Origin: a virus
IMG/VR virus record: IMGVR_UViG_3300045988_118736
Reading direction: 5' to 3' (one strand)
DNA length: 64,000 nt
Made by a program: the position numbers and the translations under genes. The notes beneath the pieces were generated by a model. It was not told the DNA's origin and made no database searches. It saw only the letters and a list, made by a program, of their open reading frames with translations. This document shows, piece after piece, positions 1 through 36,592 of this stretch (its first letter is position 1; each line of letters opens with the position of its first letter).

Positions 1-55
1 AAAATGTTTATGTGATGGGAGAGATATGAGAAAAATGTTTATGTGATGGGAGAGA
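1..55. repeat. perfect 24-bp direct repeat x2 (AAAATGTTTATGTGATGGGAGAGA at 1-24 and 32-55)
   Basis: read directly; period 31 bp; followed by G-rich GAGAGGGGG. Confidence 0.9.
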
Positions 56-85: not shown

Positions 86-138
86 GAAACGCGTTTTCTC
101 CCCACACCCCCTTCGCTGGAAAACCGGAAACGCGTTTT
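86..138. repeat. two copies of palindrome-containing motif GAAACGCGTTTT (86-98 and 127-138; AAACGCGTTT dyad)
   Basis: read directly; C-rich spacer between copies. Confidence 0.85.
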
Positions 139-542
139 TACCTCAAACCTACAAACTCGCTGATTATCAATCACTTATTTAAATTATTAATAATCAATGT
201 GTTATTATAACATATTGATTATAAGTAACTTAAGCAAACATATATCCCACATATTAATGTACGCGTGTAATACCGCTCCTGTATGTTTTTATAACTTGCT
301 GATAATCAGATAATATAATCGAAATTAATACAAATTAACAAAAAAAAGATAGCATATATATATGTAATACCGAAAAAGGTTGTATATTTGCACCGTATTC
401 AAGCGAGAATATTGGCGTTACATAATGAAGCTATATATATACTCCCGTTGGGTGTATTGTATGGCGATACCTTTTGCCTCTTTGCGTTGTAGAGAGGTGA
501 TATATTGAGGTGATATTGTTTAACAAATAAATACATATTGAT

Positions 543-2084: not shown

Positions 2085-2145
2085 GTATCCTACTCTTTCT
2101 ATTTACGGGTAGGTATTCTGAGAGTGAACGGCGGATGTGTGCCAT

Positions 2146-2238
2146 ATTGGTCTAAAACGAAACTAAAATAGGATAGTTTGGATATAATGCCGGTATTTTG
2201 TCTATATATTGTCGTTAAAATTGGTCTAAAACGAAACT
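2146..2238. repeat. 19-mer ATTGGTCTAAAACGAAACT repeated at 2146-2164 and 2220-2238
   Basis: exact direct repeat, period 74 bp, in non-coding DNA. Confidence 0.85.
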
Positions 2239-2393
2239 TTAGGCGGTTTTCTGACCCAAAATAGGGCGTCGGATGCCGCCTTTTTCGTCTCTATGGATTG
2301 AAAGTTGGGCTTATTGTATTTTTCTTAAAAATAATGTATTCCTGATTATCAATTAGTTAGGTTTTATAATACCCGTATTTTCGGACATACTTA

Positions 2394-2579
2394 TTGTATT
2401 TTTTTTGTTTTATGTGGTGGTTTTTATTAGTTGCTGACTTGTATTTTTTATCGGTTGGTATCCGTTCTATGTTGGAGTATGGAGCAGATCAGTATAATGT
2501 TGTAATGGTCTTTTGCTTTTCGTTTTTGGCTTTGATTATAGGCTTAAATATCTATATTGATAGGAGGAGCAGACGGTAG
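2394..2579 (+). CDS. small hydrophobic protein (61 aa), doubtful
   Basis: ORF in T-rich non-coding-looking region; two hydrophobic segments. Confidence 0.2.
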   Translation: MYFFCFMWWFLLVADLYFLSVGIRSMLEYGADQYNVVMVFCFSFLALIIGLNIYIDRRSRR

Positions 2580-2732
2580 GGCGTGGGCTGAAGACTCTCT
2601 ATTCTCTCTATGGAATGATATTATCTCTAAACACCCCACACTTCATGCCAGAGTATAAGCTTGTAGCGCTCTCCGTATGCCTGTAGTGAGGCCGAGAGCG
2701 CAGTTTCTATGCAGAAAGTCGGAGGATCAGCC

Positions 2733-2758
2733 GGGGTTGGGGAGAGGGAGAGGGAGGG
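2733..2758 (+). other. G-rich purine tract GGGGTTGGGGAGAGGGAGAGGGAGGG (potential G-quadruplex)
   Basis: five or more G-runs of at least 3 with 1-3 nt loops, immediately upstream of tandem array. Confidence 0.5.
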
Positions 2759-2765
2759 CACTCTC

Positions 2766-2967
2766 TTCCAACAAAATTAAGACTTACAGCGTTTTTAAAA
2801 CAGCATTTTGTAGTTTCTTCCAACAAAATTAAGACTTACAGCGTTTTAAAACAGCATTTTGTAGTTTCTTCCAACAAAATTAAGACTTACAGCGTTTTAA
2901 AACAGCATTATATAGGATTTTCCAACAAAATTAAGACTTACAGCGTTTTTAAAACAGTATTCTGTAG
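2766..2967. repeat. tandem array of four 51-60 bp units with 40-bp conserved core TTCCAACAAAATTAAGACTTACAGCGTTTT(T)AAAACAGCAT (iteron-like)
   Basis: units start 2766, 2818, 2869, 2929; core contains palindrome GTTTTAAAAC (perfect in units 2 and 3); variable 11-20 bp spacers. Confidence 0.9.
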
Positions 2968-3040
2968 GTAAGAGTTAAGGACTGTATTATGTGAGTATTT
3001 TTTTTCAATCGGAATGTATAACAATTAAAACATAAACAAC

Positions 3041-3205
3041 ATGAACGTATATGACTTTGCGCCTGACTTAGATTTGAGTAAGGAGGTAGAAGGTTCTATT
3101 TTTGGGGTGAAAGGAATAGAAGGTAGTGATGGTATAGTATATGCTAAGGTAGTTAGCTGTGAAGAAGTTAAGGATTACAGTTGTGATAGGTGTATTTTTT
3201 TATGA
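3041..3205 (+). CDS. small Cys-motif protein (54 aa), paralog of 5128..5376 and 24185..24382
   Basis: not in ORF track (<60 aa); shares FAPDLDLSKEVEGSIF and CDRCIF motifs with paralogs. Confidence 0.45.
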   Translation: MNVYDFAPDLDLSKEVEGSIFGVKGIEGSDGIVYAKVVSCEEVKDYSCDRCIFL

Positions 3206-3393
3206 TTGTTATAAGGATAAATGTTTGTTATCGCGTAGTGTTAGTTGTGTAGATGGAGACTGGCTTTGTAGGTACGAACAGGCTGCCATAGAGGGGGAGT
3301 AGGCGGCGCCTTGGGCTAAGGCCTGCGGTTGTAGGTGGAACGTAGGTCGGAGCAGAGCCGGGACAGTTTATTGTGGAACGTAAAAAGAAAAAA

Positions 3394-3658
3394 GATGGAA
3401 AGAACAATACATTATATTTGGATAAATTGGATATCTTATACAGGTTCGAAAAGTAGTAGACTAATAAGCAACAGGTTTATGCCGGTATCAGATGCCAAAG
3501 AGATGATATTAAGAACGAGTGCTAAAGAATTGCTTAAACACAGACCGAGTTGGTTAAAGGACTGTGTTCGTATTAGTGTAAGCGCACAGGATATTACGAC
3601 CGGAGAGATCCTGTATAGAAGAACTATAAACATAAAGAAGAAGGAGGAAATAATATGA
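3394..3658 (+). CDS. hypothetical protein (88 aa; track 3335 trimmed to ATG 3394)
   Basis: upstream part is GC-rich hairpin DNA; ATG 3394 follows an A-rich stretch. Confidence 0.4.
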
Positions 3659-3735
3659 AAAAGGCATTTAAGATATTTTCTATTATGTTTGTCATAGAAA
3701 TAGTGCTGATAGCTATTTTAGATGATATGGCGTAA
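3655..3735 (+). CDS. tiny hydrophobic peptide (26 aa), speculative
   Basis: ATGA overlap with preceding stop; single TM-like segment; below track cutoff. Confidence 0.2.
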   Translation: MKKAFKIFSIMFVIEIVLIAILDDMA

Positions 3736-3778
3736 GTGAGAAAAATTTCTTCATTAATTTTCTTATGCTTTAGACAGA

Positions 3779-3814
3779 ATGCTCCCGTCTGAGAAGATCG
3801 GAGCATTTGCTTTA
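3779..3814 (+). terminator. intrinsic terminator, GNRA-capped (ATGCTCC / loop with TCT-GAGA-AGA / GGAGCAT then TTGCTTTA)
   Basis: 7-bp stem plus T-rich tail after 3655..3735. Confidence 0.65.
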
Positions 3815-3834
3815 TGGGATTCATGGTGCGGTAG

Positions 3835-3851
3835 GCTGGTTCGATTCCGGC
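3835..3851 (+). promoter_or_regulatory. T-arm-like hairpin GCTGG-TTCGATT-CCGGC, 34 nt upstream of ATG 3883
   Basis: same motif as 1594 and 5083; stem differs but stays complementary. Confidence 0.6.
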
Positions 3852-3882
3852 GATCTCACACAACATTAAAATAGGGAAGAAC

Positions 3883-4287
3883 ATGTTAAAAGAAGAATTT
3901 GAAGAACTGATTAAAAGGGAGGTAAACGAAAATCAGTATAAAAACATAGAAACGGCATACGAGGCTTTGCCGGAGTATATGGATAAGATGTATTTAGCAA
4001 GTGCTATTTCAAATGATATTGGGAAAGCTATTAATGTCTTATCGTTTTTAGGATCGTATATAAGCGAGTTAATGGGTTCGATAATAATCGAAAGGCAAAA
4101 GGTGGAATCATGTGCCTATGATTTAATAAATAAATCGCATGAGGAGGATGACTTGAAAGCAAGAGAGATTGCCGTGCGATTAATAGGAGAGGGGGAAACA
4201 GTGGCATACACAGTAAAAGAAGGGCTGCCATTGTGGGAACAAGATAAAAAGTTTATAATAGAATTAATGAAGGAGGAAAGAAAATGA
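3883..4287 (+). CDS. hypothetical protein (134 aa)
   Basis: ATG 34 nt after T-arm hairpin; overlaps next gene start (ATGA). Confidence 0.55.
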   Translation: MLKEEFEELIKREVNENQYKNIETAYEALPEYMDKMYLASAISNDIGKAINVLSFLGSYISELMGSIIIERQKVESCAYDLINKSHEEDDLKAREIAVRLIGEGETVAYTVKEGLPLWEQDKKFIIELMKEERK

Positions 4288-4625
4288 AAGACGGTATTGT
4301 ATTGCATCCAGAGCATGGGTTGAATCCATCCATAGAACTATGCATAGTATGTGGCGAAGAGATGGGGATTGCTTTATTAGGGAATAACATCAAAGGGCAG
4401 GCGCCGCATCATATATGCACGGGAGAAATATGTGACAATTGCAAAAAGATAATAGATGACGGAGGTTGTTTTATTATCGAAGTCGAGGATGGATCAGATC
4501 AAAAGAATCCGTATCGTACAGGGAGATATTGCGCGATAAAGAAAGAAGCAGCAAAGAAAATACTTGGACAGGAACATAGTGTTGTGTACATGGAAAAGTC
4601 TGCATACAGTCAAATAATACCATAA
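4284..4625 (+). CDS. zinc-ribbon protein (113 aa)
   Basis: CIVCGEE...CTGEICDNC paired CxxC motifs. Confidence 0.55.
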   Translation: MKDGIVLHPEHGLNPSIELCIVCGEEMGIALLGNNIKGQAPHHICTGEICDNCKKIIDDGGCFIIEVEDGSDQKNPYRTGRYCAIKKEAAKKILGQEHSVVYMEKSAYSQIIP

Positions 4626-4639
4626 AAATAAAGAAAGAT

Positions 4640-4954
4640 ATGTTTACAAAAGAAGAGCGATTATTCATTTGGAAAAAGGTATATGAGATGATTGATTGGC
4701 AAGAGGATGGGGAATACATATGTGTTGCGTTAAGAAATGTAGTGTTTATGTATTTCAAAAAACATAAAAATATTTATGAGTTTCGTTCAGACGAAATGGT
4801 GAGAATATATTTCCCGGAATTGGAGGAAAAGAAAAGTATGGCTACAGAACCAGAAGAAGAATGGAGGATATATGGATGGTTTGGCAGTATTAGTCCAGAA
4901 ACGAAGGAGGTGAGGCTAAATATCGTAAAAGACATTATAAAAGAATTAGAATAG
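4640..4954 (+). CDS. hypothetical protein (104 aa)
   Basis: ORF followed by terminator 5001-5038. Confidence 0.5.
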   Translation: MFTKEERLFIWKKVYEMIDWQEDGEYICVALRNVVFMYFKKHKNIYEFRSDEMVRIYFPELEEKKSMATEPEEEWRIYGWFGSISPETKEVRLNIVKDIIKELE

Positions 4955-5000
4955 TATTTTTGTTAATCTATTTTATTCATCAAATTAAGTTTTGGGTTTT

Positions 5001-5038
5001 GGCATGTCGGTTCGTGAGAATAGGCATGCCTATTTCTG
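5001..5038 (+). terminator. intrinsic terminator GGCATG...(TTC-GTGA-GAA)ATAGG...CATGCC then TATTTCTG
   Basis: 6-bp GC stem, GNRA tetraloop on 3-bp upper stem, T-rich tail; follows 4640..4954. Confidence 0.65.
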
Positions 5039-5082
5039 TATCATAGAGGGATGGCGCGGCGTGCCGGTATGTATGTGTCGGT

Positions 5083-5099
5083 TCTGGTTCGATTCCAGG
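5083..5099 (+). promoter_or_regulatory. T-arm-like hairpin TCTGG-TTCGATT-CCAGG, 31 nt upstream of ATG 5128
   Basis: third copy of GGTTCGATTCC motif. Confidence 0.6.
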
Positions 5100-5127
5100 A
5101 ATCTCACAAACAATAAATCATAATCAT

Positions 5128-5376
5128 ATGGAAGTAATAACATTCAGTCCGGACATGGATTTATCTTCTAAAGAAGCAGGAGATGTATTTAGATTAAAAT
5201 TGTATGGCATAGAGTATGATGTCAAAGTAGTTGGTGATGACGAAGATCCTCTTATGTTCTGCAAAGATTGTATATTTTTTAACAACTCCGAACGGTGTTC
5301 ACTCTCAGAATCGCAAGACTGGTGCTTAAAAAAGCAAGTTGTTTACTGTAAAATAAGACATGATGGGGGAATTTAA
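5128..5376 (+). CDS. small Cys-motif protein (82 aa), paralog family CKDCIFF
   Basis: FSPDMDLSSKEAGDVF and CKDCIFF match 3041 ORF. Confidence 0.5.
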   Translation: MEVITFSPDMDLSSKEAGDVFRLKLYGIEYDVKVVGDDEDPLMFCKDCIFFNNSERCSLSESQDWCLKKQVVYCKIRHDGGI

Positions 5377-17473: not shown

Positions 17474-17943
17474 TGATAAGAAGTCATGGCTTATGCCAGG
17501 CTTGCAGGAGCAAAGAGTTGACTCCGAAGAAAAAAAACAGAATTACATCCATTAAAAACAGCAGCAAGAAGAAAAAGTTAGAGAACCCGGATTTATCCGG
17601 GTTTTTTCGTCTTATGTTGGAGGAGTTGAGTACTATTCGAATGTCTATGACTGGTAAAGCTATTCATTTTCCTACAGTATGTAACGTCTGTCACATACTT
17701 CCGAAAAGGTTATATAAGTCGGTTGCCACTTGCAGGGATAATATAGTTTTCCTTCATGAATCAGAGCATACGGTATTCGACATGTATCTTGACCGGATGG
17801 AATTTGATAAACTTGAAACAGAATTTCCTTTTGTGTGGAAGTATGCGGTAAAGAAGGTGCTGGATATGGAAAGCAGGGGAATGATTAAAGAAAGAGGTAG
17901 ATTAATTATTGAAATAATTGACAGATATGAGAAAACTTTATAA
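17419..17943 (+). CDS. zinc-ribbon protein with HNH-like nuclease motif (174 aa)
   Basis: CERCG...CQAC ribbon; CNVCHILPK...NIVFLHESEH resembles HNH core. Confidence 0.4.
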   Translation: MESKEKKLYVCERCGRKVMIRSHGLCQACRSKELTPKKKNRITSIKNSSKKKKLENPDLSGFFRLMLEELSTIRMSMTGKAIHFPTVCNVCHILPKRLYKSVATCRDNIVFLHESEHTVFDMYLDRMEFDKLETEFPFVWKYAVKKVLDMESRGMIKERGRLIIEIIDRYEKTL

Positions 17944-35207: not shown

Positions 35208-36592
35208 AAATAATAGATTCTATTCTGTAATACAAATGTAATTCGTATCTTAGATATATGATTCATAGACAATATTTATAGTATTAAAAATCATGAGATT
35301 AGCATACAAGTTCAACATAGGAAACAATGAAAATATATCATCTCTGTGCAAGATTAGCAATAACTTGTACAATCAGGCATTATATATTTTCAGAGAAACA
35401 CTTTCTAAAGAAGATAAGTGGTTATCCTATTTTAAACTTGATGATATCATGAAGAATACCAAGAACTTAGATGGAGACATTAATTACAGATTACTAAAGG
35501 CTCAATGTTCTCAACAAGTTCTTCGTATTCTTGATAAGAATATAAAAAGCTATTACAAATCGGTCCAAGATTACAAAAAACATCCTAATAAGTATAAGAA
35601 AAAACCAGGTCTTCCTAATTACAGGAAGAGAGGTTCTGAGTTTAATTTGTATTACACGAGTCAGAGTTGCAGAATAAAAGATGGGAAAATAATCCTATCA
35701 AAAAATCTTTCAATAGATATTCCTCAATATGAAAAGTATTCTGATTTGATTAAAGATTTTAAACAGATTAGAATAGAACCATTAGCGTGTGGATATAAGA
35801 TAGAAATCATTTATGAGGTAAAAGATACTGAAGTATCTAAAGGTAGGGAAGAAAAAGTTGCTTCTATTGATTTAGGAATAGACAATCTTGTAACATTAGT
35901 TAGTGAAGATTTTACCTATCTTTTTAGCGGTAATTTTGTTAAATCATATAATCAGAGATTTAATAAAACACTTGCTAAATTAAATAGCATAAAGGATTTA
36001 CAAAAGATAAAAGGAACAACAAAACGAATAAAGAAATTATATTATGATAGAGAACAGTACATAGAAGATGTCTTTCATAAAATCAGTAGAAAGATAGTTA
36101 ATTTACTTATCGATTCTAAGATAACAAAATTAGTTGTAGGCTATAACAAGGGATGGAAAACTGGAGTAAACATGGGAAAAAGAAACAACCAAAAGTTTAC
36201 CCAAATCCCTTTTGCGAGATTAGTAAGTTATTTAGAATATAAATGTGAATTATCTGGTATTGAAATAGTTATTCACGAAGAATCATATACTTCAAAATGT
36301 GATTCATTGGCATTTGAGAAGATAGGAAAACATGATAGCTATTTAGGAAGAAGGAAGAAACGAGGATTGTTTCAATCTTCAGTAGGAAAACTCATAAATG
36401 CTGATGTAAATGGGGCATTAAACATTATGAGAAAAGTAGTCGGTGATTCCTGTGAATCCATTCAAAGGATAATTGATAGAGGGTTATTGTTTAACCCGGT
36501 AAGGATTACGAATGTATTTTGTTAAGAAGGTGCATTCCGAAACTTATAAAGAAATGTAATAGATTTTTATTTAATTTAATATTTTTCATAAC
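35208..36592 (+). mobile_element. IS605-family TnpB-only (IS1341-like) element, ends approximate
   Basis: contains tnpB ORF; both flanks carry AATAGATT and AAATGTAAT motifs (35213-35243 and 36552-36566); no tnpA. Confidence 0.5.
35293..36525 (+). CDS. tnpB: TnpB (IS200/IS605 OrfB-family RNA-guided nuclease homolog), 410 aa
   Basis: RuvC-I IDLGIDNL, RuvC-II IHEESYTSK, RuvC-III NADVNGALNIMRK; Zn-finger cysteines largely replaced. Confidence 0.85.
   Translation: MRLAYKFNIGNNENISSLCKISNNLYNQALYIFRETLSKEDKWLSYFKLDDIMKNTKNLDGDINYRLLKAQCSQQVLRILDKNIKSYYKSVQDYKKHPNKYKKKPGLPNYRKRGSEFNLYYTSQSCRIKDGKIILSKNLSIDIPQYEKYSDLIKDFKQIRIEPLACGYKIEIIYEVKDTEVSKGREEKVASIDLGIDNLVTLVSEDFTYLFSGNFVKSYNQRFNKTLAKLNSIKDLQKIKGTTKRIKKLYYDREQYIEDVFHKISRKIVNLLIDSKITKLVVGYNKGWKTGVNMGKRNNQKFTQIPFARLVSYLEYKCELSGIEIVIHEESYTSKCDSLAFEKIGKHDSYLGRRKKRGLFQSSVGKLINADVNGALNIMRKVVGDSCESIQRIIDRGLLFNPVRITNVFC

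What the first reader, a model, noticed from the sequence alone, without database searches (positions are those of the whole stretch)
2733..2967. Iteron-like tandem array with palindromic GTTTTAAAAC core preceded by a G-quadruplex-capable tract
Four direct repeats (51-60 bp) share a 40-bp core TTCCAACAAAATTAAGACTTACAGCGTTTT(T)AAAACAGCAT. The core contains a perfect 10-bp palindrome GTTTTAAAAC in units 2 and 3 and GTTTTTAAAAC in units 1 and 4. Units are separated by short variable segments. Immediately upstream lies GGGGTTGGGGAGAGGGAGAGGGAGGG. The array sits in a 2.2-kb gene-poor stretch. The architecture fits a replication origin with initiator-binding iterons, or a packaging or regulator-binding array.
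Basis: seen in the sequence. Interest (0 to 1): 0.65.

Follow-up and report, generated by a model that had tools for sequence, protein, structure and literature searches.

The report
Variable 51-bp repeat near phage genome end
A real head-to-tail array of four 51-52-bp repeats sits about 0.64 kb inside the mapped genome end of an uncultured human-gut epsilon crAss-like phage; its copy number changes from strain to strain, it breaks metagenome assemblies, and it looks more like a protein-binding control array than a classical replication origin.

Summary
Four head-to-tail units of 51-52 bp lie at 2764-2969, unique in the window, preceded by its only G-quadruplex-capable homopurine tract (2733-2758). 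The window is an epsilon crAss-like phage, about 92% identical over this region to crAssE-Sib (OR575929).

In 76 distinct relatives the array is always present but holds 1-9 units, plus amplified partial units. The conserved feature is a two-block motif, TTCC.ACAAAATT.A / 7-8 variable nt / CAG.G.TTTAAAACAG.AT..TGTAG. The palindrome is not conserved.

The gene-proximal unit is never part of a recent duplication. The motif occurs nowhere else in the 151-kb sister genome and shows no RNA fold.

Whole-genome GC skew turns at the gene-strand switch points, not at the array, and no initiator or partition gene was found. The published PhageTerm-set genome start of crAssE-Sib maps to window 2122|2123, 0.64 kb left of the array. 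A second variable array (27-31-bp units) lies 2.07 kb on the other side.

Best reading, confidence about 0.35: a multi-copy DNA-protein binding platform heading the rightward early operon. Origin, packaging, neutral-minisatellite and leader-RNA readings are not excluded. Function is unproven.

The parts
2733..2758 (+). G-rich homopurine tract GGGGTTGGGGAGAGGGAGAGGGAGGG directly abutting the array. Its length is polymorphic in relatives through GGGAGA-type expansions.
   Evidence: only canonical G4 motif in the window, containing the only homopurine run of 20 nt or more; length variants, for example in L077, L113 and L126.
2764..2815 (+). Unit 1 (52 bp; GTTTTTAAAAC core at 2789-2799)
2816..2866 (+). 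Unit 2 (51 bp; GTTTTAAAAC core)
2867..2917 (+). Unit 3 (51 bp; tail ATTATATAGGAT)
2918..2969 (+). Unit 4 (52 bp), the gene-proximal 'anchor' unit. The same unit ends the array in 17 distinct relatives, and a last unit is never part of a recent duplication.
   Evidence: 0 of 24 near-identical neighbour pairs involve the last pair.
2970..2994 (+). Likely decayed unit remnant (AAGAGTTAAGGACTGTATTATGTGAG) that has lost the TTTAAAAC core.
   Evidence: Read directly. This is inference.
2115..2129 (+). ATTCTGAG|AGTGAAC. The start/end junction of the crAssE-Sib GenBank record, set with PhageTerm by its authors, falls at 2122|2123.
   Evidence: PMC11054128.
5297..5311 (-). Exact inverted copy of the 15-mer that spans the mapped genome start. 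It lies inside ORF 5128-5376.
   Evidence: (I18).
1..55 (+). Last two units of a second variable tandem array (27-31-bp unit ...ATGTTTATGTGATGGGAGAGA...), cut by the window start. Relatives carry 2-13 copies.
   Evidence: (D10).
2263..2290 (+). Intrinsic-terminator-like hairpin plus T run that closes the upstream transcription unit.
2290..2410 (+). AT-rich non-coding stretch, 93-95% conserved even where neighbouring ORFs are 75-89% identical. It contains the IHF-consensus site TATCAATTAGTTA (2347-2359) and a TATAAT hexamer, and is the likely promoter region of the unit that contains the array.
   Evidence: The promoter role is inferred.
2412..2579 (+). Conserved small ORF (55 aa, hydrophobic).
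   Evidence: Annotated as a CDS in OR575929.
2635..2745 (+). Conserved non-coding segment with a predicted helix GCGCUCUC/GAGAGCGC, and a C-rich segment pairing with the start of the G tract. A few G-U or compensatory changes are seen.
   Evidence: Support is weak because the alignment is shallow.
3041..3302 (+). First ORF downstream of the array (74 nt after unit 4). It is split in this window by a T7 versus T6 run. It heads a block of about 34 kb of rightward genes: small ORFs first, then primase, helicases and exonucleases.

Best explanation
The array is a variable-number tandem repeat of a two-block DNA motif of about 45 bp. It most likely serves as a multi-copy binding platform for a sequence-specific, phage-lineage-specific DNA-binding protein or polymerase. 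It sits at the head of the rightward early/replication gene block, about 0.64 kb inside the genome end.

**Proposed mechanism.** After DNA entry, the factor binds the gene-proximal anchor unit. The upstream duplicate units add further binding sites. This sets or boosts transcription entry into the early operon. In position the array is analogous to the T7 A1-A3 or N4 P1-P3 early promoter clusters. The adjoining purine/G-rich tract stalls polymerases and drives slippage, which makes the copy number unstable.

**Shown:** existence, uniqueness, the conservation pattern, copy-number variability, polarity, position relative to genes, and position relative to the published genome start.

**Inferred:** that the motif is bound by a protein, that the effect is on early transcription, that the downstream genes are early genes, and that the G tract causes the instability.
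For: 1. **Constraint pattern.** Across 74 distinct units, two blocks are almost invariant (TTCC.ACAAAATT.A and CAG.G.TTTAAAACAG.AT..TGTAG). They are separated by 7-8 nt with almost no information content. Neutral repeats do not show this.
2. **Always present.** All 76 distinct relatives carry the array, and 75 have two or more units. This includes lineages whose flanks have diverged to 45-76%.
3. **Polarity.** All units point the same way as the downstream genes. Recent duplications (24 near-identical neighbour pairs) are all in the first or middle part. None involves the gene-proximal pair, although about a third would be expected there.
4. **Position.** A terminator-like hairpin at 2263-2290 closes the upstream unit. 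The array ends 74 nt before the first ORF of a block of about 34 kb of same-strand genes: small unknown ORFs, then replication genes.
5. **Genome end.** The PhageTerm-set start of the sister genome (p = 1.5e-22, PMC11054128) maps to window 2122|2123.
6. **Single-locus, lineage-specific element.** The motif has no other copy in the 151-kb genome.
7. **No RNA fold.** Folding is no better than shuffles on either strand, z = -1.7 and -0.7, which favours a DNA-level role.
Against: - No promoter consensus is present. There is no Bacteroidetes TTTG/TAnnTTTG and no sigma-70 pair in the units.
- Early promoters of the one studied crAss-like virion RNA polymerase have no known motif (bioRxiv 10.1101/2020.03.07.982082), so the promoter idea cannot be tested by sequence.
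- A better conserved promoter-like AT-rich region lies upstream at 2290-2410. The array may therefore be inside a transcribed leader rather than being the promoter.
- The distance from the last unit to the ATG varies from about 45 to 92 nt between haplotypes.
- No binding protein was identified.
- The class of terminus (pac, cos or DTR) and its polarity are not stated in the paper. That record position 1 equals the PhageTerm start is my inference.
- Copy numbers come from short-read assemblies, which cannot resolve identical units reliably.
Confidence: 0.35

Rival explanations
1. **Replication origin.** The units are long iterons for an unidentified initiator. Alternatively, the G-rich tract forms a persistent R-loop whose RNA primes synthesis in the AT-rich array, which then acts as the DNA-unwinding element, as at ColE1 or phage T4 ori(uvsY)/ori(34).
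For: - Direct repeats with about 30% GC lie next to a G-rich tract on the non-template strand.
- IHF-consensus sites are nearby: 4 of the window's 10 lie within 1-2400.
- A second array plus an AT-rich palindrome lies 2.7 kb away, flanking a 179-aa gene of unknown function. This resembles P1 incC-repA-incA or P4 ori/crr.
- The array is unique in the genome.
- A preprint predicts two origins about 2.6 kb apart near the DTR region of the prototypical crAssphage (PMC10983915).
Against: - The skew extremes are at 17.7 and 110.7 kb, not at the array, and there is no sign change across it.
- Units are 51 bp.
- The two arrays have unrelated units.
- No Rep, initiator or DnaA-box signal was found.
- The structure model of the 179-aa protein was unusable, pLDDT 38.6.
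- Primase and helicase genes lie 15-20 kb away.
- Copy number varies 1-9.
Confidence: 0.2
2. **Terminus or packaging element.** The two variable arrays bracket the packaging cut or terminal repeat. They would act as terminase-small-subunit or IHF-assisted recognition or processing sites, or would simply be terminal reiterations like T7 SRL/SRR or the herpesvirus 'a'-sequence repeats.
For: - The two strongest tandem repeats of the whole 151-kb sister genome lie 2,066 bp and 642 bp on either side of the PhageTerm-set start.
- Exact IHF-consensus sites accompany both arrays.
- The 15-mer spanning the start has an exact inverted copy 3.18 kb to the right. This is compatible with staggered nicks bounding a terminal repeat that would contain the array.
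- All crAss-like phages encode an IHF-like protein in the structural module (PMC7886860).
Against: - Known pac and cos recognition sites lie within about 200 bp of the cut, not 0.64 and 2.07 kb away (own knowledge of lambda cosB, SPP1 pac and P1 pac).
- The terminus class is not reported.
- No contig end maps to 2100-2199.
- The orientation and polarity of the units relative to downstream genes has no explanation under this model.
Confidence: 0.15
3. **Neutral minisatellite.** Replication slippage or unequal exchange next to a polymerase-stalling purine/G4 tract near a recombinogenic DNA end generates and keeps turning over a repeat that has no sequence-specific function.
For: - Copy-number variation is extreme.
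- Partial units of 17, 21, 22 and 24 nt show irregular 'stutter' amplification, concentrated next to the G tract.
- The G tract is itself length-polymorphic.
- Duplications are polarised towards the G-tract side.
Against: - The strong position-specific conservation across 74 distinct units, with a single free 7-8-nt window, is not expected without selection.
- The array is retained in every relative, including the most diverged ones.
- The last unit is stable.
Confidence: 0.15
4. **RNA-level element.** The array is transcribed within the leader of the early operon, and the repeated A-rich motif acts in the RNA as a protein sponge, a processing site or a translation or antitermination signal.
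For: - A conserved promoter-like region (2290-2410) and a small ORF lie upstream on the same strand with no terminator in between.
- The segment just upstream may be structured RNA.
- In the crAss-like phage phi14:2, long intergenic regions near the left end are the most highly transcribed early RNAs, of unknown function.
Against: - Folding is not significant on either strand.
- Rfam gives no hit.
- phi14:2 and crAss001 have no comparable array.
Confidence: 0.08
5. **Partition site or CRISPR mimic.** The array would be a centromere-like partition site (sopC or EBV FR type) for an episomal carrier state, or a CRISPR-repeat mimic (RNA anti-CRISPR).
For: - Tandem units of 43-51 bp with a short near-palindromic core resemble F sopC (own knowledge).
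- A phage-plasmid lifestyle has been proposed for crAssphage (PMC10983915).
Against: - No ParA/ParB-like protein was found in the window or in the 17 kb upstream in the sister genome.
- The palindrome is broken in 23 of 74 units.
- There are no spacers between units, and Rfam gives no CRISPR-DR hit.
- No multi-copy match to the block-B pattern appeared in the first 120 stretches from 185,579 species genomes. That scan was truncated.
Confidence: 0.05

Closest known systems
Early promoter clusters at the leading genome end of phages with transcription-assisted DNA entry (T7 A1/A2/A3; N4 P1-P3 for the virion RNA polymerase)
   Same: Several similar elements in the same orientation lie a few hundred bp inside a genome end, directly upstream of the early genes. 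The phage carries giant virion-RNA-polymerase-type genes (2137- and 2239-aa ORFs on the minus strand).
   Different: The units are identical-length head-to-tail copies with variable number. There is no recognisable promoter consensus and no N4-type stable hairpin. The promoter function is untested.
Iteron-type origins (lambda ori, P1 incC/incA, R6K gamma, P4 ori/crr)
   Same: Direct repeats in an AT-rich, unique, non-coding locus. IHF-consensus sites are nearby. A second repeat cluster lies a few kb away.
   Different: - Units are 51-52 bp rather than 17-22 bp.
- The two clusters share no motif.
- No initiator gene is recognised.
- There is no skew change.
- Copy number is very unstable between near-identical strains.
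Tandem centromere or maintenance repeats (F sopC 12 x 43 bp; EBV oriP family of repeats 20 x 30 bp)
   Same: Long tandem units, each with a short A/T-rich near-palindrome. Copy-number variation is tolerated.
   Different: No partition ATPase or ParB-like gene was found. The palindrome is not conserved. The conserved part of the unit is asymmetric.
Terminus-flanking reiterations (T7 SRL/SRR heptamer arrays; herpesvirus 'a'-sequence DR arrays)
   Same: Repeat arrays bracket the mapped genome end and vary in number between strains.
   Different: The arrays lie 0.64 and 2.07 kb from the mapped end. The units are much longer than the T7 heptamers. No terminal repeat has been demonstrated here.
Bacterial VNTR/minisatellite loci used for strain typing
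   Same: Copy number differs between strains that are otherwise 90-100% identical. The array breaks short-read assemblies.
   Different: The unit shows strong position-specific sequence constraint and a fixed gene-proximal anchor unit.

Membership tests
Iteron-type replication origin | Several direct repeats of about 17-22 bp, usually phased at about 21-22 bp | tested here: not met
   Units are 51-52 bp. Only occasional partial-unit amplifications of 17-22 nt are seen in some relatives.
Iteron-type replication origin | Cognate initiator gene adjacent to or containing the repeats | tested here: inconclusive
   Pfam and PHROGs give no Rep or initiator hit for neighbouring ORFs. The 179-aa protein between the two arrays has no annotation, and its AlphaFold model is unusable at pLDDT 38.6.
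Iteron-type replication origin | Strand-compositional (GC skew) switch at the locus | tested here: not met
   The cumulative skew extremes of the complete sister genome are at 17,716 and 110,658. The array is at about 150.5 kb, and skew is positive on both sides. Caveat: skew follows gene orientation here.
Iteron-type replication origin | Adjacent AT-rich unwinding element and host-factor sites (DnaA boxes, IHF) | tested here: inconclusive
   The array itself is 27-34% GC. An exact IHF-consensus site lies at 2347-2359. There is no DnaA-box cluster nearby.
Replication origin (functional definition) | Replication initiates there (marker frequency, 2-D gels, autonomous replication) | not testable with these tools
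   No read data or experiments are available.
CRISPR array, mini-array or RNA anti-CRISPR | Repeats separated by unique spacers, and similarity to a CRISPR repeat family | tested here: not met
   Units abut without spacers. Rfam at E<=5 gives no CRISPR-DR hit. No multi-copy match appeared in the species genomes sampled; that scan was truncated.
Centromere-like parS/sopC array | Conserved inverted-repeat core in each unit and linked parA/parB genes | tested here: not met
   The palindrome is broken in 23 of 74 distinct units. No ParA/ParB Pfam hits.
Bacteroidetes sigma-A or sigma-70 promoter | TTTG at -33 plus TAnnTTTG at -7, or TTGACA-17-TATAAT | tested here: not met
   Neither consensus matches within the units.
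Promoter for the crAss-type virion RNA polymerase | Transcription start in or at the unit, dependent on the phage polymerase | not testable with these tools
   No consensus is known for this polymerase class, and no transcript data are available.
pac/cos packaging signal | Repeated terminase-binding sites within about 200 bp of the cut site | tested here: not met
   The array starts 642 bp from the PhageTerm-set start, and the other array is 2,066 bp away. The distance criterion comes from my own knowledge of lambda, SPP1 and P1.
G-quadruplex-forming tract | Four or more G runs of at least 3 with loops of 7 or less, conserved in relatives | tested here: inconclusive
   The motif is present in the window, at 2733-2754. 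It is canonical in 35 of 76 relatives and absent at this position in crAssE-Sib. Folding in vivo is not testable.
Structured RNA repeat | Stable fold relative to shuffles, or covariation | tested here: not met
   z = -1.7 on the plus strand and -0.7 on the minus strand.

The most novel reading that the evidence does not exclude
The exact 15-mer ATTCTGAG|AGTGAAC at the mapped genome start (2115-2129) and its inverted copy at 5297-5311 may be two staggered nick sites. Together they would generate a direct terminal repeat of about 3.18 kb (2123-5303) carrying the 51-bp array, the first early genes and two tRNA-like RNAs.

The array would then be present twice per virion, at both ends. It would act as the loading zone for the injected virion RNA polymerase, and its copy number would tune early expression. 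This would give a first defined cis-element for early transcription or DNA entry in a crAss-like phage.
Probability: 0.08. Interest if true: 0.75.

Novelty: new variant of a known kind. Interest (0 to 1): 0.42.

Why it matters
- **No cis-element is defined for crAss-like phages.** They are among the most abundant human-gut viruses, yet no replication origin, packaging signal or early promoter has been defined experimentally for them.
- **This locus is a concrete candidate.** It is unique, constrained and close to the mapped genome end, so a probe can be designed directly for binding, transcription-start and deletion tests.
- **Practical effect on assemblies.** The two arrays account for 91 of the mapped contig ends among the 124 truncated loci of this phage lineage. 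They split off a piece of about 2.75 kb in thousands of public assemblies. This affects completeness calls based on terminal repeats.
- **Strain marker.** The array offers a ready VNTR marker for strain tracking, provided long reads confirm the copy numbers.

Tried and rejected
- **tRNA and Rfam searches** of the window and region found nothing.
- **RNA folding of the array** on both strands was not significant.
- **Host promoter consensus scans** found nothing in the units.
- **Genome-wide search for further copies** of the unit or its blocks found none. A genome-wide promoter or 'stoperator' family is therefore rejected.
- **Neighbouring and upstream ORFs** gave no initiator, ParA/ParB, TerS or repressor hit in Pfam or PHROGs.
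- **The 179-aa protein between the arrays.** The homologue search returned only relatives of 88% identity or more among the 120 listed. AlphaFold on that shallow alignment gave pLDDT 38.6, so no fold search was run.
- **Other crAss-like phages.** phi14:2 and crAss001 have no comparable tandem array. The prototypical crAssphage record is not in the collection.
- **More distant epsilon relatives.** A primase tblastn against INPHARED found only crAssE-Sib as a close relative. The other seven hits were 34% identity or less, in five short unannotated contigs and two Parabacteroides phage genomes. Three flank-protein scans of IMG/VR returned only the same species-level cluster, so the second proposed epsilon genus could not be examined.
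- **Genome-collection scan for block B** gave chance single hits plus one dispersed repeat in a Bacteroidaceae MAG that shares only the 20-nt pattern. A host CRISPR or host-repeat origin is therefore not supported.
- **Contig-end mapping as evidence for physical ends** was rejected. The ends coincide with the repeats, as expected from assembly breaks, and not with the PhageTerm position.
- **Copy-number correlation between the two arrays** was absent (rho 0.16, p 0.2).
- **Literature searches** found no description of these arrays.

Full report
**1. What is in the sequence.**

The region 2733-2969 contains a G-rich homopurine tract (2733-2758). Five bases later come four head-to-tail repeats: 2764-2815, 2816-2866, 2867-2917 and 2918-2969.

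- TRF reports period 51, 4.0 copies, 93% matches and score 345. No other tandem repeat in the window scores above 50.
- The 26-nt 5' part of the unit occurs exactly four times, with zero expected.
- The 20-nt 3' block occurs four times in the array.
- The G tract is the only canonical G4 motif on either strand of the 64-kb window. It also contains the only homopurine run of 20 nt or more.

**2. What the window is.**

Plus-strand genes run to about 37 kb and include primase-like, DnaB-like, helicase and exonuclease genes. Minus-strand giant ORFs of 2137 and 2239 aa follow.

The only phage record with DNA similarity is crAssE-Sib (OR575929, 151,256 bp, human gut), at 92% identity. It is an epsilon crAss-like phage described in PMC11054128. 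Its annotation shows a minus-strand block that wraps around the record ends, and a plus-strand structural block from 17.4 to 110.8 kb. The array lies in the middle of the long replication/early block, not at a strand switch.

**3. Relatives.**

Three protein-anchored scans of IMG/VR returned more than 230 loci, all from one species-level cluster. I extracted the stretch between conserved anchors from 146 loci and obtained 76 distinct versions.

- All versions contain the repeat.
- A profile search counts 1 unit in 1 version, 2 in 37, 3 in 19, 4 in 10, 5 in 3, 6 in 3, 8 in 2 and 9 in 1.
- Many versions also carry irregular amplifications of partial units. Examples are CTCCCTACCAACAAAATTCAA x7 in L024 and L026, and a 22-nt piece x7 in L135.
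- The purine tract also changes length.

The flanks are 90% identical or more in most columns. The array is thus a hot spot in an otherwise stable region.

*Caveat.* These are short-read assemblies, and runs of identical units cannot be counted reliably. The mosaics of distinguishable unit types are trustworthy.

**4. What is conserved.**

Aligning 74 distinct full-length units gives two nearly invariant blocks: TTCC.ACAAAATT.A and CAG.G.TTTAAAACAG.AT..TGTAG. They are separated by 7-8 nt with essentially no information.

The array has polarity. Of 24 near-identical neighbour pairs in arrays of three or more units, 10 are the first pair, 14 are internal and none is the gene-proximal pair. About a third would be expected there. 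The last unit also comes in fewer types. Unit 4 of this window is the commonest such anchor unit.

The blocks are kept in the most diverged relatives (L101, L073). In those relatives the spacer between the array and the ATG is only 45-62% identical, and ORF 3883-4287 is 75-86% identical. I read this as purifying selection on a sequence-specific element.

**5. DNA or RNA.**

The array folds no better than shuffled sequence on either strand, with z = -1.7 and -0.7. Rfam finds nothing.

The 160 nt upstream may be structured. It has a GCGCUCUC/GAGAGCGC helix, and a C-rich segment pairs with the start of the G tract, with a few wobble or compensatory changes. The alignment is too shallow to be convincing.

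**6. Tests of the origin idea.**

- The cumulative GC skew of the complete sister genome has its minimum at 17,716 and its maximum at 110,658, exactly where gene orientation flips. The array is at 150.46-150.61 kb, and the skew keeps the same sign on both sides.
- No neighbouring ORF matches an initiator, a partition protein or any DNA-binding family.
- DnaA boxes do not cluster here.
- The 179-aa protein encoded between the two arrays has only near-identical homologues among those listed, and its model is unusable.

Skew is confounded with transcription, however, so it is not excluded.

**7. The genome end.**

The crAssE-Sib authors state that the start of their pseudo-circular genome was set with PhageTerm, at p = 1.5e-22. 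The record's end and start join at window 2122|2123, inside ATTCTGAG|AGTGAAC.

I infer that a physical DNA end or packaging cut lies 642 bp to the left of the array. From there, reading rightward, come:

- a terminator-like hairpin at 2263-2290;
- a very conserved AT-rich stretch with an exact IHF-consensus site and a TATAAT hexamer, at 2290-2410;
- a conserved 55-aa ORF;
- the possibly structured segment, the G tract and the array;
- 74 nt later, the first of many small ORFs.

This is the layout of the leading end of phages whose early region enters first. The paper does not give the terminus class or its polarity.

**8. A second array.**

The window begins inside another variable array with a 27-31-bp unit...ATGTTTATGTGATGGGAGAGA.... 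Relatives carry 2-13 copies. It lies just after the terminator of the upstream operon.

In crAssE-Sib these two arrays are the two highest-scoring tandem repeats of the whole genome. They lie 2,066 bp and 642 bp on either side of the record junction. Their copy numbers do not correlate.

Of the ends of truncated loci that map to the window, 91 fall in one array or the other, and none falls at 2100-2199. Logan assemblies repeatedly yield the inter-array piece as a separate contig of about 2.75 kb. These are assembly breaks at repeats and are not evidence of physical ends.

**9. Specificity.**

- The unit profile finds no further copy in the 151-kb genome.
The multi-copy hits I checked or recognised from earlier loci were from this lineage. 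L405, from a 172.9-kb contig, was confirmed by BLAST.
- A scan of species genomes gave only single chance hits, plus an unrelated dispersed repeat in one MAG.
- phi14:2 and crAss001 have no comparable array.
- In phi14:2 the long intergenic regions near the left end are abundantly transcribed early, and early promoters have no recognisable motif.

**10. Interpretation.**

The evidence comprises a constrained two-block motif, a single locus, the same orientation as the downstream genes, a stable gene-proximal unit with dispensable upstream copies, a position at the head of the early block 0.64 kb from the mapped end, and no RNA fold.

This fits best with a multi-copy DNA-protein binding platform that controls entry into the early operon. 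I give it about 0.35. The rivals are:

- replication origin, iteron or R-loop type: 0.20;
- terminus or packaging element: 0.15;
- neutral minisatellite driven by the G tract: 0.15;
- leader-RNA element: 0.08;
- partition site or CRISPR mimic: 0.05.

None of these is demonstrated. The decisive data are read-start and coverage profiles, long reads, 5'-end RNA mapping and binding assays.

**11. Novelty and score.**

I found no description of these arrays in the searchable literature. Tandem cis-acting repeats near phage genome ends are a known kind of feature. This one is an undescribed variant, with long units, strong instability and a fixed anchor unit, in an important but uncultured phage group.

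Interest is moderate at 0.42. The locus is a useful, testable handle and an assembly and strain-typing caveat, but there is no surprising mechanism yet.

Noticed in passing
window 1-55 (continues left of the window; e.g. L030, L092, L132): A second variable tandem array with a 27-31-bp unit, ...ATGTTTATGTGATGGGAGAGA(GGGT/TATGAG). Relatives carry 2-13 copies. It lies right after the terminator of the upstream operon, and the window itself starts inside it.
   Followed up: partly
window 2115-2129 and 5297-5311: The 15-mer spanning the PhageTerm-set genome start of crAssE-Sib (ATTCTGAG|AGTGAAC) has one exact inverted copy 3.18 kb downstream, inside ORF 5128-5376. Both copies are conserved in relatives. 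They may mark the boundaries of a terminal repeat.
   Followed up: partly
window ~1595-1628, 3836-3869, 5084-5117: Three copies of a tRNA-like T-arm (GGTTCGATTCC). In two of them a GUGAGA...UCUCAC closing helix is also present. Each ends a non-coding stretch of 110-550 nt just before an ORF. ARAGORN and Rfam are negative. The sister genome encodes a Ro60/TROVE-like protein and a CCA-adding enzyme, so these could be Y-RNA-like or processing elements.
   Followed up: partly
window 165-177, 192-204, 208-220 (-), 2347-2359: Four of the ten exact matches to the E. coli IHF consensus WATCAANNNNTTR in the 64-kb window cluster in the two AT-rich regions next to the two arrays. Three of them lie in and around a 27-nt inverted repeat at 179-233.
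   Followed up: no
window 87-96 and 128-137: Two copies of the perfect 10-bp palindrome AAACGCGTTT, 41 bp apart, in a C-rich stretch between array 1 and the AT-rich region. They look like operator sites.
   Followed up: no
window 2146-2164 and 2220-2238: An exact 19-nt direct repeat, ATTGGTCTAAAACGAAACT, spaced 74 bp apart just to the right of the mapped genome start.
   Followed up: no
window 2412-2579: A conserved 55-aa hydrophobic ORF (MWWFLLVADLYF...) inside the 'gene-poor' stretch. The substitution pattern (28 third-position, 14 first-position and 6 second-position variable columns) supports coding.
   Followed up: yes
window 3041-3302 (T run at ~3193-3199): The first ORF after the array is split in this window by a T7 run where crAssE-Sib has T6 and an intact 86-aa CDS. 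This is either a sequencing or assembly error or a homopolymer frameshift. The protein is a paralogue of ORF 5128-5376 (38% identity, E = 9e-8).
   Followed up: partly
window 2290-2410 and 3206-3394: Two non-coding stretches are as conserved as, or more conserved than, neighbouring coding regions (93-95% and 87-93% against 75-89% in the most diverged relatives). The second is GC-rich and may be a structured RNA.
   Followed up: no
L256, L263, L296, L297, L298, L302, L309, L310 (MAG JAQVXN01, Bacteroidaceae): A dispersed intergenic repeat of about 150 bp, present on at least eight contigs of one Bacteroidaceae MAG, contains TTTAAAACAGCATTTTATAG. It shows no other similarity to the phage unit, so the match is probably coincidental.
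   Followed up: partly
Logan contigs such as L160 (2,766 bp); IMG/VR contigs 119050, 132585, 133813: The segment of about 2.75 kb between the two arrays is assembled as a separate contig in very many public runs. Several IMG/VR contigs of 141-152 kb run from one array to the other and lack this segment. Completeness and 'DTR' calls for this lineage may therefore be unreliable.
   Followed up: partly
window 35293-36525: A TnpB/IS605-OrfB-like transposase ORF (PHROG 506, E = 7e-43) lies at the end of the plus-strand block. The sister genome has two such genes and a complete DGR elsewhere.
   Followed up: no
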